Virus record (IMG/VR): IMGVR_UViG_2531839474_000007
Location: 1-24,423 of that record
Direction: 5' to 3' (one strand)
Source: a virus
Taxonomy: Duplodnaviria; Heunggongvirae; Uroviricota; Caudoviricetes
Length of the DNA: 24,423 bases
Position numbers and translations under genes: made by a program. Under the pieces are notes generated by a model, which saw only the letters and a program-made list of their open reading frames with translations, searched no databases and was not told the origin of the DNA. This document shows positions 776 to 7,084 of the stretch, piece after piece (position 1 is the stretch's first letter; the number at the start of each line of letters is the position of its first letter).

Positions 776-1380
776 CCTCGTTTAAAAAATATTGTTATTG
801 TTAAAGAATTCTTTTATTTTGCTATCAGGTATTTGTCTTACTTGGCTTTCTGTTCTTGGTTTAACTGATGCTATGAAAATAAGGAAGTCAAATGCGACAA
901 GAGAAATAATCCACAACCAAAGATTAATTAAAGAGCCAGTAACAGAGAATATATTTGTTAATTTGGCGATACTTATTATTAAAATAGTAACAAATGCGAT
1001 TACTGTATGTTCAAAGAAAACCCAAAAGTAATAAACTTTGTTCCAGAAAAGTTCAACGTAATGTTTGTCTTTTAACTCTTTAACTTCTGGGTAATACAGT
1101 TTACTCATTACCTTGTGAGATTCATCAGTAGTTAATTTTCTCGTAACGCCTGCAATTTTTGCTAATGGTTTAATAATTAAATGACTATCCCACATCTTCC
1201 TTATTCCAATAATTTTTGCTACATTATTATGTAGATCTAAAGCTCCACTAATTACTGACCAAAAAACTGAAGATGCAATTGGTAATATGCCAAAGGTTAA
1301 TATCCATTTAATAAATTCCTCGTAGTCTTTAACGGGGGTGAACCGCCCCGGTTTTCCTGGAGAGTGTTTTATCTGTGAAC

Positions 1381-2268
1381 TCAGGCTGCCAGATCATCGT
1401 TTCTGATGGAAGCATAATAAGCTTTTTCTGCTTCTGCCGGAGGGATATGACCCAGCCTTCCCAGCAATCGTCGATTGTTATACCAGTCCACCCACGTGAG
1501 TGTGGCCAGTTCCACTTCTGCACGGTTTTTCCAGCTCTTACGGTGTATTACCTCCGCTTTGTAAAGACCATTGATGCTCTCCGCCATCGCGTTGTCATAC
1601 GAGTCACCTGTACTCCCTGTTGATGCCAGCAGTTTTGCTTCTTTTAGTCGCTCCGTATAGGCCAGTGATACATACTGAGAACCTTTATCACTGTGATGGA
1701 CTGTGCCGGACGGCCGACGGGCCCACAACGCCTGCTCCAGTGCATCCAGCACGAATGTCGTTTCCATAGACGATGAGACTCGCCACCCCACGATACATCC
1801 GGCAAACACATCAATGATGAACGCCACATAGACGAAGCCCTGCCATGTGCTGACGTAAGTAAAATCAGCCACCCACAGCTGGTCAGGACGTTCTGCCACG
1901 AACTGACGGTTTACGCGGTCGCCTGCGGAAACGGCTTTCCGGCTGACGGTAGTACGGACCTTTTTACCCCGGAGAACACCGGCAAGTCCCATAACCGCCA
2001 TGAGGCGCGCCACTGTACATCTGGCCACCCTGATACCTTCGCGTAACAACTGGCGCCAGACTTTACGCACACCGTACACCTGATGATTTTCATCGTATAC
2101 GCGCTGTATCTCTCTCTTCAGCCAGTCATCGCGCTGAGCACGGGCACTGCGTTTATCAGGATGATGTCGCTGTTGCTGACAGTGGTAATACGTTGACGGG
2201 GCAATATGCAGTTCACTGCATACCGGTCCGACCCCGTACTGCTCACGCAGCTTATCCAGCAGCGGCAT
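1381..2268 (-). CDS. IS629 OrfB transposase (DDE/integrase catalytic region)
   Basis: 295-aa ORF identical to the copy-2 OrfB; -1 frame relative to orfA. Confidence 0.9.
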   Translation of the reverse strand: MPLLDKLREQYGVGPVCSELHIAPSTYYHCQQQRHHPDKRSARAQRDDWLKREIQRVYDENHQVYGVRKVWRQLLREGIRVARCTVARLMAVMGLAGVLRGKKVRTTVSRKAVSAGDRVNRQFVAERPDQLWVADFTYVSTWQGFVYVAFIIDVFAGCIVGWRVSSSMETTFVLDALEQALWARRPSGTVHHSDKGSQYVSLAYTERLKEAKLLASTGSTGDSYDNAMAESINGLYKAEVIHRKSWKNRAEVELATLTWVDWYNNRRLLGRLGHIPPAEAEKAYYASIRNDDLAA

Positions 2269-2594
2269 TATTTTTTCCAGAGGCGGTCGAACTCCGCCTT
2301 CGCAAAATAAGCGGAAGCCTGGCGAAGGATATCGTTACTGCGGCGCAGTTCACGATTTTCACGTTCCAGCTCTTTCAGACGCTGACGTTCAGCGGTGGTG
2401 AGTCCACCATCACCACTCCCGGTATCCCGCTCATGCTGACGAACCCACACACGCAGAGTCTCTGGTGTACAGCCAATCTTTGGGGCAATGGAACAAATTG
2501 CCGCCCATTGTGAGTCATATTCGCCCTGACTTTCCAGAACCATACGAACTGCCCGTTGACGGACCTCGGGGGAAAAACGTGTATTTTTAGTCAT
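2268..2594 (-). CDS. IS629 OrfA (HTH DNA-binding transposase subunit)
   Basis: 108-aa [22 protein letters not shown]... with C-terminal leucine-zipper-like region; ends in the A6 tract where IS3-family -1 frameshifting occurs. Confidence 0.9.
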
Positions 2595-3374
2595 CCTGTT
2601 TACCTCTTTCTCAGGGAGTTTAGTCTCCAGGATTCCCGGGGCGGTTCAGGGGGGATATACTTGGCATTAATGCCAACCAATGGCATGTAGCCATAAATGA
2701 CTAATGATAGGTAAAATATAAATGTAGTAATAAAAGTCGCCTTATGGAGCATAGGCAACATTTCATTATAACTCTTTGGTGGTTCTAACATTTTACTCTC
2801 CAAACACTCAAAAAAAAGCTAATCTTCTATAATAACGAAATTCAGCTGGCACAATTAAAGATTAATTGCCACCAATTTCTTGATTTTATAATTTTATCTA
2901 AATGTTTTTGATTAATCTAGTCCTAAAAGAAACCTACTGCATAAATATTTATGCTGATGACCCACTCCCTGTTCGTTAACACATAGCAACGTTAGTAATG
3001 CATCCTAAGTGATCAATATTTTTGCTAGCTTCATCTGCTCGCTCAAAGGGAACTATAATGTTGGCTTGCGTGTGACTTGGCATGTTTAAAGAAGTGCTGG
3101 TGGTGACTGGTTGCTGTTTTCCATTTCCACAGAACAAAATCATAGAAACTATACCCAGTAGTTGTATTGAATCACTGACGAGACAGCCTCATATTTATCA
3201 GGACTGGTGTACGTCCAATACAGGAGGTTGTGGTGCTGGTTCTCAAATGTGCGCTGGCTATTGCTGCTGTAATGGCAATTTATTGTCTTGCTGTTGTTCT
3301 TATGGATCACCTTTCTGATTGATTTCATATTGGCGAGGTAACGGTAGTTAAGTAGAATTGCTGCGGGTGCTTGA

Positions 3375-3412
3375 GGCTATCTGCCTCGGGCATCAACACC
3401 AAAGGCAGATAG
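3375..3412 (+). promoter_or_regulatory. perfect 10-bp inverted repeat (CTATCTGCCT ... AGGCAGATAG) in the hok/mok leader; presumed mRNA structural element
   Basis: Hairpin read directly; no T-run on either strand so not an obvious terminator; lies where hok mRNA 5' regulatory structures and the antisense sok gene are expected. Confidence 0.35.
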
Positions 3413-3476
3413 AGAAAAGCCCCAGTTAACATTACGCGTCCGGCAAGACGCTTAACATTAATCTGAGGCCATATCT

Positions 3477-3689
3477 ATGCTCTACACACGTAGGTTAGCC
3501 TCTTACGTGCCGAAAGGCAAGGAGAAGCAGGCTATGAAGCAGCAAAAGGCGATGTTAATCGCCCTGATCGTCATCTGTTTAACCGTCATAGTGACGGCAC
3601 TGGTAACGAGGAAAGACCTCTGCGAGGTACGAATCCGAACCGGCCAGACGGAGGTCGCTGTCTTCACAGCTTACGAATCTGAGGAGTAA
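3477..3689 (+). CDS. mok: mok-like reading frame (in-frame N-terminal extension overlapping hok)
   Basis: 70-aa ORF with GAGG Shine-Dalgarno 8 nt upstream of ATG 3477; contains the complete Hok frame. Confidence 0.45.
   Translation: MLYTRRLASYVPKGKEKQAMKQQKAMLIALIVICLTVIVTALVTRKDLCEVRIRTGQTEVAVFTAYESEE
3534..3689 (+). CDS. hok: Hok/Gef-family type I toxin (HokD/RelF-like small membrane toxin)
   Basis: 51-aa MKQQKAMLIALIVICLTVIVTALVTRKDLCEVRIRTGQTEVAVFTAYESEE; GGAG Shine-Dalgarno 9 nt upstream; single transmembrane helix plus conserved Cys; near-identical to my recollection of HokD. Confidence 0.85.
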   Translation: MKQQKAMLIALIVICLTVIVTALVTRKDLCEVRIRTGQTEVAVFTAYESEE

Positions 3690-3755
3690 GAGACCCGGCG
3701 GGGGAGAAATCCCTCGCCACCTCTGATGTGTCAGGCATTCTCAACGCACCCGCAT

Positions 3756-3786
3756 TTAACCCGCTTCGGCGGGTTTTTGTTTTTAT
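3756..3786 (+). terminator. rho-independent terminator downstream of hok
   Basis: AACCCGC-TTCG-GCGGGTT stem-loop followed by TTTTTGTTTTTATTTT. Confidence 0.75.
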
Positions 3787-3909
3787 TTTCAACGCGTTTG
3801 AAGTTCTGGGCGGTGCCGGAATAGAATCAAAAATACTTAAGTAGCGCGCAGGGATAAGAGGGATGGACCCCGAACAGGGGAGTGCTATTTATCTGGAAGG
3901 ATTCTGTTG

Positions 3910-4170
3910 ATGAAAATCGAAGAATTACGTGAAATTTTTACTGAAGATGGCCTCTATACTGTGCGCGTTGAGAATGGTGCTATTGTCAGTCACTGCCGTA
4001 TTAAATGTTTACAATCTAAACAAAGGAAGAGTGGTGCTGCGTTAATTTATTTTGTGGATGAACTTGTGACAGATGGTTTTATTTTGCGTGAAAATGAATT
4101 TGTCACATCATTGCAGTCTCTGAAAGAAGCTGGGCTTAAGGCTGGTTTTTCTGCTTTTGAAGATGAGTAA
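3910..4170 (+). CDS. hypothetical small protein; positional equivalent of rem in the Qin prophage
   Basis: 86-aa ORF with GGAAGGA upstream; position between hok and the ydfU-like gene matches the Qin order hokD-rem-ydfU; no motif recognised. Confidence 0.45.
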   Translation: MKIEELREIFTEDGLYTVRVENGAIVSHCRIKCLQSKQRKSGAALIYFVDELVTDGFILRENEFVTSLQSLKEAGLKAGFSAFEDE

Positions 4171-6834: not shown

Positions 6835-6910
6835 GGCCCTTTAGCTCAGTGGTGAGAGCGAGCGACTCATAATCGCCAGGCCGCTGGTTCAAATCCAGCA
6901 AGGGCCACCA
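6835..6910 (+). tRNA. tRNA-Ile2 (anticodon CAU, ileX/ileZ-like; lysidine-type) or tRNA-Met
   Basis: 76-nt cloverleaf folded by hand: acceptor GGCCCTT/AAGGGCC, D arm GCTC..GAGC, anticodon loop CTCATAA, T loop TTCAAAT, 3' CCA encoded; close to E. coli ileX as recalled. Confidence 0.85.
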
Positions 6911-6917
6911 TCACATA

Positions 6918-6994
6918 CCGCCATTAGCTCATCGGGATAGAACGCCAGCCTTCGAAGCTGGTTTCGCGGGGTTCGAGTCTCCGATGGCGGTCCA
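6918..6994 (+). tRNA. tRNA-Arg, anticodon UCG as read
   Basis: 77-nt cloverleaf: acceptor CCGCCAT/ATGGCGG, anticodon stem CCAGC/GCTGG with loop CTTCGAA, T arm CGGGG-TTCGAGT-CTCCG, CCA encoded; one D-stem mismatch. Confidence 0.8.
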
Positions 6995-7007
6995 TTATCG
7001 GTATTCT

Positions 7008-7084
7008 GCGTTTTTAGCTCAGCCGGACAGAGCAATTGCCTTCTAAGCAATCGGTCACTGGTTCGAACCCAGTACAACGCACCA
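7008..7084 (+). tRNA. tRNA-Arg, anticodon UCU (argU-like, reads AGA/AGG)
   Basis: 77-nt cloverleaf: anticodon stem ATTGC/GCAAT with loop CTTCTAA, T arm ACTGG-TTCGAAC-CCAGT, CCA encoded; one acceptor-stem mismatch. Confidence 0.8.

What the first reader, a model, noticed from the sequence alone, without database searches (positions are those of the whole stretch)
3320..3790. hokD-like toxin with its own mok frame and leader hairpin, but no relBE upstream
Hok here is almost identical to my recollection of HokD/RelF, and the downstream order (small ORF, YdfU-like, Q) mirrors the Qin prophage arrangement relB-relE-hokD-rem-ydfU-Q. Upstream, however, there is no relBE. Instead there is a mok-like in-frame extension with its own Shine-Dalgarno, a perfect 10-bp inverted repeat in the leader, and a terminator after hok, which is the architecture of an autonomous hok/sok module. 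Whether an antisense sok RNA is encoded could not be resolved by eye.
Basis: partly seen in the sequence, partly recalled or inferred. Interest (0 to 1): 0.45.

Follow-up and report, generated by a model that had tools for sequence, protein, structure and literature searches.

The report
Intact prophage hok/mok/sok toxin–antitoxin module
This is a complete, ordinary copy of the well-known hok/sok "host-killing" toxin–antisense-RNA cassette carried by a Qin-like lambdoid prophage of E. coli; the familiar K-12 hokD behind relBE is the truncated version, not this one.

Summary
Window 3534-3689 encodes a Hok toxin that matches K-12 HokD at 50 of 51 residues. It has a 19-codon in-frame mok extension with a GAGG Shine-Dalgarno, a perfect 10-bp inverted repeat in the leader and an intrinsic terminator. 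The window contains no relB or relE.

The open question, whether Sok is encoded, is answered yes at the sequence level. On the minus strand there is a promoter-like site, then a long hairpin and a U-tract. Together these predict an RNA of about 75 nt (3485 to about 3409).
- The hairpin is more stable on the minus strand in 48 of 48 related loci.
- It keeps G·U pairs that would be A·C mismatches on the hok strand.
- The putative promoter hexamers and spacer (3492-3520) are identical to the same stretch of hokW-sokW in Sakai prophage Sp5, where sokW is expressed from its own promoter and the pair is an experimentally shown type I toxin-antitoxin system.

The tac/fbi long-range pairing and the ucb sequestration of the mok SD are also present.

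The intact leader occurs in 4215 of 5426 complete E. coli genomes. The K-12-type relE-hokD junction occurs in 1173. The locus is therefore already known and common, and interest is low.

Two side notes:
- The Sok 5' tail is a hypervariable island.
- An unannotated 29-codon hydrophobic ORF sits just upstream.

The parts
3330..3358 (+). hok promoter-like site: TTGGCG (3330-3335), 17-nt spacer, TAGAAT (3353-3358). The predicted +1 is near 3365.
   Evidence: Consensus scan, 9 of 12 matches. A TAnnAT -10 lies at a fixed distance before GGG(T/C)GC in loci from several genera. Homology to hokW starts only at about 3345, so the -35 comes from the local flank.
3365..3785 (+). Predicted full-length hok mRNA (leader, mok/hok, 3' UTR, terminator).
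   Evidence: Rfam RF01794 matches 3365-3539 at 114 bits against a gathering score of 59. The MFE fold is -173.2 kcal/mol, z = -7.3 against shuffles.
3365..3377 (+). tac (translational activator element), the 5' end of hok mRNA.
   Evidence: It pairs with fbi (3739-3751) in the full-length MFE and switches to ucb (3417-3423) when the 3' end is removed. It is invariant in 92 phage haplotypes.
3377..3412 (+). 5' leader hairpin formed by the perfect 10-bp inverted repeat (3377-3386 / 3403-3412).
   Evidence: It corresponds to the first helix of the Rfam model.
3417..3423 (+). ucb / anti-SD box (AAGCCCC).
   Evidence: It pairs with the mok SD region 3465-3469 in the full-length fold and with tac in folds truncated at 3730 or earlier.
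3465..3468 (+). mok Shine-Dalgarno (GAGG), 8 nt before the mok ATG.
   Evidence: Read from the sequence. GAGGC is conserved before the mok ATG in related loci.
3477..3689 (+). mok reading frame (70 aa): a 19-codon in-frame N-terminal extension of hok.
   Evidence: Exactly 19 codons are conserved in most of the 52 related loci, across Escherichia, Photorhabdus, Pantoea and Erwinia. The exact 70-aa protein is on 217 public contigs.
3492..3520 (-). Putative Sok promoter: -35 TTGCCT (3520 to 3515), 17-nt spacer, -10 TAACCT (3497 to 3492).
   Evidence: Placed by position relative to the annotated 5' ends of K-12 sokC and sokB. The stretch is 100% identical to the same stretch in Sp5 hokW-sokW, where sokW is expressed from its own promoter and promoter mutations unleash toxicity (PMC8621323); the paper's figure with the mutated bases was not readable here. 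It matches only 7 of 12 consensus positions and was not found by the scan.
3409..3485 (-). Predicted Sok antisense RNA (about 75 nt): 5' single-stranded tail 3485 to 3471, hairpin 3470 to 3418, U-rich tail to about 3409.
   Evidence: The fold is -34.7 kcal/mol, z = -6.0. The minus-strand hairpin is more stable than the plus-strand one in 48 of 48 loci, by 8.5 kcal/mol on average. Covarying pairs and G·U pairs fit only the minus strand. The ends are inferred from homology.
3470..3490 (.). Hypervariable island: the Sok 5' tail, which is also the mok start region and the Sok target.
   Evidence: Nucleotide diversity is 0.311 here against 0.00-0.09 in the rest of the leader, among 92 phage/prophage haplotypes. 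There are 19 distinct segments in 120 loci. Seven of the 9 leader differences from Sp5 fall here.
3519..3524 (+). hok Shine-Dalgarno (AAGGAG). It overlaps the Sok -35 by 2 nt.
   Evidence: Read from the sequence. CAAGGAG is nearly invariant across loci.
3534..3689 (+). hok toxin gene (51 aa).
   Evidence: 98% identical to K-12 HokD. Pfam HOK_GEF E = 2.9e-23. PHROG 251 'MokW-like host killing' E = 6e-33. The exact protein is on more than 1000 public contigs, named HokD.
3697..3718 (+). GC-rich 3' UTR stem-loop, the likely protective 3' end of the processed mRNA.
   Evidence: It is present in every fold, full-length and truncated. The role is inferred from the R1 model (PMC9841398).
3739..3754 (+). 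fbi (fold-back inhibitory element), complementary to tac.
   Evidence: A 9-nt perfect complement links 3362-3370 and 3746-3754. The duplex energy is -26 kcal/mol. fbi lies at a constant offset of about 45-50 nt after the stop codon. tac/fbi changes are compensatory: GGGUGC/GCACCC versus GGGCGC/GCGCCC.
3758..3785 (+). Intrinsic terminator of hok mRNA.
   Evidence: A stem of 7 pairs with a T-run. It is shared with K-12 hokD but not with Sp5 hokW.

Best explanation
The locus is an intact, self-contained hok/mok/sok type I toxin-antitoxin module of the HokD/HokW lineage. It sits in the early-right region of a Qin-like lambdoid prophage.

**Proposed mechanism.**
1. hok mRNA is transcribed from its own promoter, with +1 near 3365, and ends at the terminator around 3785.
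2. The full-length RNA is closed. tac at the 5' end pairs with fbi in the 3' UTR, and ucb sequesters the mok SD. In this state the RNA is not translated and does not bind Sok.
3. Slow 3' trimming removes fbi. tac then pairs with ucb and the mok SD is freed. mok translation then drives translation of the overlapping hok.
4. Sok is a constitutively made, short-lived antisense RNA of about 75 nt from the minus strand (3485 to about 3409). It pairs with the mok start region of the processed mRNA. This blocks mok/hok translation and marks the duplex for cleavage.
5. When Sok supply stops, the stable mRNA pool yields Hok. Supply could stop through loss of the prophage or a transcription block during induction. 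Hok is a 51-aa inner-membrane peptide that collapses the membrane.

**Shown here.**
- All sequence elements are present.
- The predicted partner switch of tac occurs when the 3' end is removed.
- tac and fbi covary.
- The Sok hairpin is conserved in a strand-specific way.
- The locus is near-identical to a validated system.

**Inferred from the plasmid R1 and Sp5 hokW-sokW literature.**
- 3' processing and RNase III cleavage.
- Sok instability.
- The biological role, which could be prophage stabilisation or help with lysis on induction.
For: **Toxin.**
- Hok is 98% identical to HokD and matches Pfam HOK_GEF.
- HokD and HokW are toxic when expressed (10.1101/2025.08.07.668861; PMC8621323).

**Leader.**
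- Rfam RF01794 matches at 114 bits.
- K-12 hokB, K-12 hokC and Sp5 give the same match. The truncated K-12 hokD locus gives none.

**mok.**
- A 19-codon in-frame extension with SD is conserved across genera.

**tac/fbi and ucb.**
- The full-length MFE pairs 3365-3376 with 3739-3751 and pairs ucb with the mok SD.
- Truncation at 3730 or earlier switches tac to ucb.
- Changes between loci are compensatory.

**Sok.**
- The hairpin and U-tail are on the minus strand, z = -6.0.
- The minus strand is more stable in 48 of 48 loci.
- Stem pair 5 is U·G in 29 of 29 unique hairpins, which would be C·A on the plus strand. Pairs 7-9 covary.
- The predicted 5' end matches the annotated sokC and sokB ends.
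- The -35, spacer and -10 are identical to the same stretch in Sp5.

**Prevalence.**
- The intact leader is in 4215 of 5426 genomes.
Against: - No expression data exist for this particular copy.
- The putative Sok promoter matches only 7 of 12 consensus positions and was not found by the generic scan.
- Its conservation cannot be separated from constraints on the overlapping hok SD and mRNA helices.
- I could not see which bases Takada et al. mutated, because the figure is not held, so the TAACCT assignment is positional.
- In truncated folds the MFE pairs the freed mok SD with a 3' UTR CCUC rather than with the expected dcb. The fine details of the open form are therefore not reproduced.
- Chromosomal hokA, hokB and hokC loci were reported not to mediate post-segregational killing (cited), so activity of an intact-looking copy is not guaranteed.
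- A 29-codon ORF ends 8 nt before the hok -35 with no terminator in between. Read-through transcripts with an extended 5' end are possible.
Confidence: 0.93

Rival explanations
1. The locus is a decayed or silent chromosomal hok copy, as in K-12. The sequence looks complete, but the module no longer kills or is no longer regulated. For example, the hok promoter could be too weak, or Sok could be in permanent excess. In that case it would be a passenger relic.
For: - Chromosomal hokA, hokB and hokC loci did not mediate post-segregational killing and were not rifampicin-activated (literature cited).
- The hok -35 lies outside the conserved module and is supplied by the flank.
- The prophage carries two IS629-like insertions, which suggests some decay.
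Against: - No IS, frameshift or stop disrupts any element.
- tac, ucb, the Sok hairpin and the Sok -35/hok SD region are almost invariant among 92 haplotypes, which points to continuing selection.
- The 95%-identical Sp5 copy is functional (PMC8621323).
Confidence: 0.05
2. hok has no dedicated antisense regulator. It is expressed only by read-through from upstream, for example from the transcript of the 29-codon ORF at 3233-3322. Control would be by mRNA folding alone.
For: - The generic scan finds no minus-strand promoter.
- There is no terminator between 3322 and the hok leader.
Against: - The minus-strand terminator-like hairpin shows wobble pairs that fit only that strand, and covarying pairs.
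- Its position matches the annotated sokB and sokC.
- The putative promoter stretch is identical to the same stretch of Sp5, where sokW is expressed from its own promoter.
- hok has its own 9-of-12 promoter match.
Confidence: 0.02

Closest known systems
hokW-sokW of Stx2 prophage Sp5 / phage 933W group (E. coli O157:H7 Sakai, ECs_1245 region)
   Same: - About 95% nucleotide identity from the hok -10 (about 3345) to the end of fbi (3754).
- The putative Sok -35, spacer and -10, the hok SD and the first 90 nt of hok are identical.
- It has the same long (60-nt) Sok hairpin variant.
- It is experimentally a type I TA system, with sokW expressed from its own promoter (PMC8621323).
   Different: - Seven substitutions are concentrated in the Sok 5' tail and mok start (3470-3489).
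- Hok differs at 3 of 51 residues.
- The 3' terminator and both flanks are unrelated.
- In Sp5 the module lies at the far end of the prophage, near an antirepressor gene and the rutG-side boundary, not in the region upstream of Q.
hokD (relF) of E. coli K-12 cryptic prophage Qin
   Same: - The Hok protein is 50/51 identical.
- The sequence is nearly identical from position 3520 through the hok CDS, 3' UTR, fbi, terminator and into the rem upstream region.
- It occupies the same prophage neighbourhood: rem, ydfU/DUF968, and dicA/dicB/dicC further left.
   Different: - K-12 has relB-relE abutting hokD.
- Everything upstream of 3520 is absent there: the hok promoter, tac, ucb, the Sok target, the mok start and the Sok -10. 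Rfam finds no leader in that locus.
- The K-12-type junction is in 1173 of 5426 genomes, against 4215 with the intact leader.
hok/sok (parB) of plasmid R1, the archetype, and K-12 hokB/sokB and hokC/sokC
   Same: - The same set of elements is present: tac/fbi, ucb/dcb, mok, a cis-antisense Sok overlapping the mok start, and a HOK_GEF toxin.
- The mechanism is as summarised in PMC9841398.
   Different: - R1 Hok is only about 44% identical to the HokW type (figure taken from PMC8621323, not computed here).
- The Sok hairpin here is about 20 nt longer than in hokC-type and hokB-type loci.
- The carrier is a prophage rather than a plasmid.

Membership tests
[quoted passage not shown] | Small hydrophobic Hok/Gef-family toxin | tested here: met
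   Pfam PF01848 HOK_GEF matches at E = 2.9e-23, 81.6 bits against a cut-off of 22. The protein is 98% identical to HokD.
[quoted passage not shown] | mok reading frame that overlaps hok, has its own SD and starts inside the Sok-complementary region | tested here: met
   The frame 3477-3689 is in frame with hok, with GAGG at 3465-3468. The 19-codon extension is conserved across genera.
[quoted passage not shown] | Long-range 5'-3' pairing (tac/fbi) that closes the full-length mRNA | tested here: met
   The MFE pairs 3365-3376 with 3739-3751. Loci from other genera show compensatory changes, with fbi at a constant offset.
[quoted passage not shown] | ucb/anti-SD sequesters the mok SD, and tac switches from fbi to ucb after 3' truncation | tested here: met
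   In thermodynamic folds, ucb 3419-3423 pairs with 3465-3469 in the full-length RNA. tac pairs with 3417-3423 once the RNA ends at 3730 or earlier. The predicted SD/dcb helix of the open form was not reproduced.
[quoted passage not shown] | cis-encoded antisense Sok RNA with its own promoter and terminator, complementary to the mok translation-initiation region | tested here: met
   This is sequence-level evidence only. The minus-strand hairpin and U-tail give z = -6.0. Stability, wobble pairs and covariation are strand-specific. The position equals the annotated sokB and sokC. The putative promoter stretch is identical to the same stretch of Sp5. The promoter matches only 7 of 12 consensus positions. 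Expression itself was not tested.
[quoted passage not shown] | Homology of the leader to curated hok/sok loci | tested here: met
   Rfam RF01794 matches at 114 bits against a gathering score of 59, over the full model 1-157. The model is in hok-mRNA sense.
[quoted passage not shown] | Toxicity of Hok, unstable Sok, 3' processing, RNase III cleavage and post-segregational killing | not testable with these tools
   Available only by analogy to plasmid R1 (PMC9841398) and Sp5 hokW-sokW (PMC8621323).
relBE-hokD operon arrangement (K-12 Qin type) | relB and relE immediately upstream of hokD, replacing the hok leader | tested here: not met
   No RelB or RelE homologue in the 24.4-kb window (tblastn). 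The full leader is present instead.

The most novel reading that the evidence does not exclude
The 21-nt stretch that encodes the Sok 5' tail, which is also the mok start and Sok target (3470-3490), may be a set of discrete specificity alleles. About 7 major alleles exist, and the window carries the commonest one. Diversifying selection would maintain them so that the several hok/sok copies carried by different prophages in one cell do not cross-protect each other. Each prophage would then keep a private addiction or lysis-timing switch. The unannotated 29-codon membrane-peptide ORF that always travels 8 nt upstream of the hok -35 could be a further, uncharacterised part of the same cassette.
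Probability: 0.35. Interest if true: 0.35.

Novelty: already known. Interest (0 to 1): 0.1.

Why it matters
This matters little as a discovery. Prophage-borne hok/mok/sok modules are catalogued, and one 95%-identical copy has been characterised experimentally.

There are three practical points.
1. This copy shows what the intact HokD-type locus looks like, and makes clear that K-12 hokD is a 5'-truncated derivative fused to relBE.
2. RefSeq annotates only the hokD CDS here. mok, Sok and the neighbouring 29-codon ORF are left unannotated in thousands of genomes.
3. The Rfam 'sok' model reports the hok-sense strand, so automatic annotation from it would place Sok on the wrong strand.

Tried and rejected
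- **Generic promoter scan.** The sigma-70 scan of 3000-4000 found no minus-strand promoter. I located the Sok promoter by homology and position instead.
- **Rfam as evidence for Sok.** I first read the Rfam 'sok' hit as direct evidence for the antisense RNA and then rejected that reading. The hit is on the hok strand. In K-12 it lies opposite the annotated sokB and sokC. It therefore proves only leader homology.
- **Large protein database search for the 29-aa ORF.** An exact look-up found it called only a few times, once as 'membrane protein'. Pfam, NCBIfam and PHROGs give nothing, and a literature search for the peptide string gives nothing.
- **Supplementary primer tables of PMC8621323.** Not held, so I could not confirm the exact bases mutated in the sokW -10.
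- **hokW in the first part of Sp5.** Not found in the first 30 kb fetched. It lies at the other end of the prophage.
- **First diversity comparison.** The ungapped version was unreliable because of indels. I replaced it with an alignment-based one.
- **Inversion between the two inverted IS copies.** Considered and rejected. Each copy has its own target-site duplication, and gene order matches an IS-free relative.

Full report
**Observation.**

- The ORF at 3534-3689 encodes a 51-aa peptide that is 98% identical to K-12 HokD. The only difference is S49 in place of P49. It matches Pfam HOK_GEF at E = 2.9e-23 and PHROG 251 'MokW-like host killing' at E = 6e-33.
- An ATG at 3477 opens a 70-codon frame that runs in frame into hok. 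GAGG lies 8 nt upstream.
- The leader holds a perfect 10-bp inverted repeat, 3377-3386 and 3403-3412, inside a longer imperfect one.
- A stem with a T-run follows hok at 3758-3785.
- tblastn with K-12 RelB and RelE finds nothing in the whole 24.4-kb window.

**Context.**

The window is a Qin-like lambdoid prophage.
- An almost identical, IS-free relative in E. coli strain C7 has this gene order: dicB, dicA, dicC, replication genes, a variable cargo (SMEK-domain protein, methyltransferase, hypothetical), hokD, a Rem-like ORF, a 92-aa ORF, DUF968/YdfU-like, RusA, Q, three tRNAs and lysis genes.
- Compared with K-12 Qin, Rem is 72% identical and YdfU is 85% identical. RusA and the 92-aa ORF are extra. 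The Q protein is unrelated to YdfT.

**Anatomy of the module.**

- **Rfam match.** Rfam RF01794 matches 3365-3539 on the + strand at 114 bits over the full model. The model is written in the sense of hok mRNA and ends at the hok AUG. In K-12 it hits the strand opposite to the annotated sokB and sokC genes, and it finds nothing at the truncated K-12 hokD. The match therefore establishes leader homology, not the antisense RNA as such.
- **hok promoter.** A promoter-like site, TTGGCG-17-TAGAAT, ends at 3358 and places +1 near 3365. A TAnnAT box at that distance recurs in related loci from several genera.
- **Full-length fold.** Folding the predicted full-length mRNA (3365-3785) gives -173 kcal/mol with z = -7.3. 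In this fold the 5' end (tac, 3365-3376) pairs with 3739-3751 (fbi). The box at 3419-3423 (ucb) pairs with the mok SD region at 3465-3469.
- **Truncated folds.** When the RNA is cut at or before 3730, tac pairs with ucb instead. This is the partner switch described for plasmid R1 (PMC9841398). The predicted SD/dcb helix of the open form was not reproduced by the MFE.
- **Covariation of tac and fbi.** Across about 45 related loci, fbi sits 45-50 nt after the stop codon. Changes are compensatory: GGGUGC/GCACCC in Escherichia and Kluyvera, GGGCGC/GCGCCC in Photorhabdus and Pantoea, and GAGGC/CCUC against GAGAC/UCUC.
- **mok.** The extension is exactly 19 codons in most loci, from Escherichia to Erwinia.

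**Is Sok encoded?**

By alignment with the annotated sokC and sokB of K-12, the Sok equivalent starts at about 3485 on the minus strand. It covers the mok start and SD.

The predicted RNA has three parts: a 15-nt 5' tail, a long hairpin (3470 to 3418) and a CUUUUCUCU tail. Its fold gives -34.7 kcal/mol with z = -6.0.

Upstream lie TTGCCT (3520 to 3515), a 17-nt spacer and TAACCT (3497 to 3492). This is only 7 of 12 consensus matches, which is why the generic scan missed it. The A at position 2 and the T at position 6 of the -10 are at least 90% conserved among 49 loci.

Two lines of evidence go beyond resemblance.
1. **The hairpin is selected on the minus strand.**
   - It is more stable there than on the plus strand in 48 of 48 loci, by 8.5 kcal/mol on average.
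   - Among 29 unique hairpins, stem pair 5 is U·G in all 29, which would be C·A on the hok strand.
   - Pair 1 is G·U in 23 of the 29.
   - Pairs 7 to 9 covary through up to six pair types.
2. **The locus is about 95% identical to a validated system.**
   - The whole locus matches hokW-sokW of Sakai prophage Sp5 at about 95%.
   - It is 100% identical from 3490 to 3624, which includes the putative Sok -35, spacer and -10.
   - For that system, sokW expressed from its own promoter neutralises HokW. Mutations in the sokW promoter unleash toxicity, and sokW in trans partly rescues it (PMC8621323).

**Relation to K-12 hokD, and prevalence.**

- K-12 is nearly identical to the window from position 3520 onward, through hok, the 3' UTR, fbi, the terminator and on towards rem. 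Upstream of 3520 it carries relE sequence instead. K-12 hokD has therefore lost the hok promoter, tac, ucb, the Sok target, the mok start and the Sok -10.
- The intact 188-nt leader is found at 80% coverage or more in 4215 of 5426 complete E. coli genomes, with a median of 2 copies and up to 10.
- The K-12-type relE-hokD junction is in 1173 genomes.
- RefSeq annotates only the hokD CDS at these places.
- A 2026 survey reports that hok is enriched in prophages (10.1101/2025.08.07.668861).
- The absence of relBE is therefore the normal state, not an anomaly.

**Mechanism and role.**

I take the R1 scheme to apply: a closed full-length mRNA, 3' processing, mok-coupled hok translation and a Sok block. 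This is summarised in PMC9841398.

The biological role is inferred only. Candidates are prophage stabilisation, or help with lysis on induction. In Sp5, mitomycin C treatment removes sokW, HokW is then made, and phage yield doubles.

**Verdict.**

This is an already known and very common element.

**Side observations.**

1. **Hypervariable island.** Among 120 IMG/VR loci with identical flanks, the 21 nt at 3470-3490 fall into 19 variants and about 7 major alleles. The window carries the commonest, in 25 of 120. Alignment-based diversity is 0.311 there, against 0.00 to 0.09 elsewhere in the leader and 0.072 in the hok CDS. Seven of the nine leader differences from Sp5 lie there. This fits allele-specific Sok recognition but was not tested.
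2. **Unannotated small ORF.** A 29-codon hydrophobic ORF lies at 3233-3322, with a GTG start and an AGGAGG SD. It ends 8 nt before the hok -35. It is intact in 7 of 7 diverged copies and sits next to different upstream cargo in different genomes. The region occurs in 1758 genomes without annotation.
3. **IS copies.** Two identical 1310-bp IS629-like elements lie in inverted orientation at 1339-2648 and 10025-11334. Each has its own target duplication.
4. **Codon positions.** Diversity in the hok CDS is about equal at all three codon positions. This would be expected if RNA structure also constrains the sequence.

Noticed in passing
window 3233-3322 (+), SD at 3222-3227: An unannotated 29-codon ORF encodes a hydrophobic peptide, MLVLKCALAIAAVMAIYCLAVVLMDHLSD. 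It has a GTG start 5 nt after AGGAGG. It ends 8 nt before the hok -35, with no terminator in between. It is intact in 7 of 7 diverged copies with mostly conservative changes, and sits next to different upstream cargo genes in different genomes. The region is in 1758 of 5426 E. coli genomes with no RefSeq feature, and was once called 'membrane protein' (APK03751.1). It has no Pfam, NCBIfam or PHROG match and no literature hit.
   Followed up: partly
window 3470-3490: This is a hypervariable island inside an otherwise nearly invariant hok leader. It corresponds to the Sok 5' tail, the mok start and the Sok target. There are 19 variants and about 7 major alleles in 120 phage/prophage loci. Diversity is 0.311 against 0.09 or less elsewhere in the leader. 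Co-resident copies in one E. coli genome and one Shigella genome carry different alleles.
   Followed up: partly
window 1339-2648 (-) and 10025-11334 (+): Two 100% identical 1310-bp IS3-family elements lie in inverted orientation. They are IS629-like: 95.6% identical to the Sakai Sp5 IS629, with the ALIL frameshift pseudoknot. They bracket 7.4 kb that includes hok/sok, Q and the tRNAs. Each has its own target-site duplication (about GGGG, and AAG), so these are independent insertions with no inversion. The first splits a hypothetical gene (782-1195 plus 2600-2803).
   Followed up: yes
Rfam RF01794 match, window 3365-3539 (+); K-12 loci L003 and L004: The Rfam family named 'sok antitoxin' is modelled in the sense of hok mRNA and ends at the hok AUG. 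In K-12 it hits the strand opposite to the curated sokB and sokC genes. Annotation taken directly from it would put Sok on the wrong strand and make it about twice too long.
   Followed up: yes
window 3672-3675: The Tyr47 codon UAC is followed by G. This is the UACG context of TadA A-to-I editing, which recodes Tyr to Cys in hok mRNAs according to the literature (10.1101/2025.08.07.668861). Editing would create a second Cys alongside Cys30. This was not tested here.
   Followed up: no
window 3534-3689: Among 92 phage/prophage haplotypes, nucleotide diversity in the hok CDS is nearly the same at codon positions 1, 2 and 3 (0.068, 0.064, 0.084). This is unusual for a protein-coding gene. It is consistent with extra constraint from mRNA structure.
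   Followed up: no
window 6835-7084 and 7855-8027: Downstream of Q there are three tRNA genes. ARAGORN calls them CAT (Met), TCG (Arg) and TCT (Arg); RefSeq annotates the first as tRNA-Ile. This is the ileZ-argN-argO-type cluster of Stx-like phages. An Rfam STnc100 sRNA match follows at 100.8 bits.
   Followed up: no
locus L030 (Kluyvera sp.), compared with K-12 locus L002: A K-12-like, relE-derived leader precedes hok in a Kluyvera genome as well. The relBE-hokD fusion is therefore not confined to E. coli.
   Followed up: no
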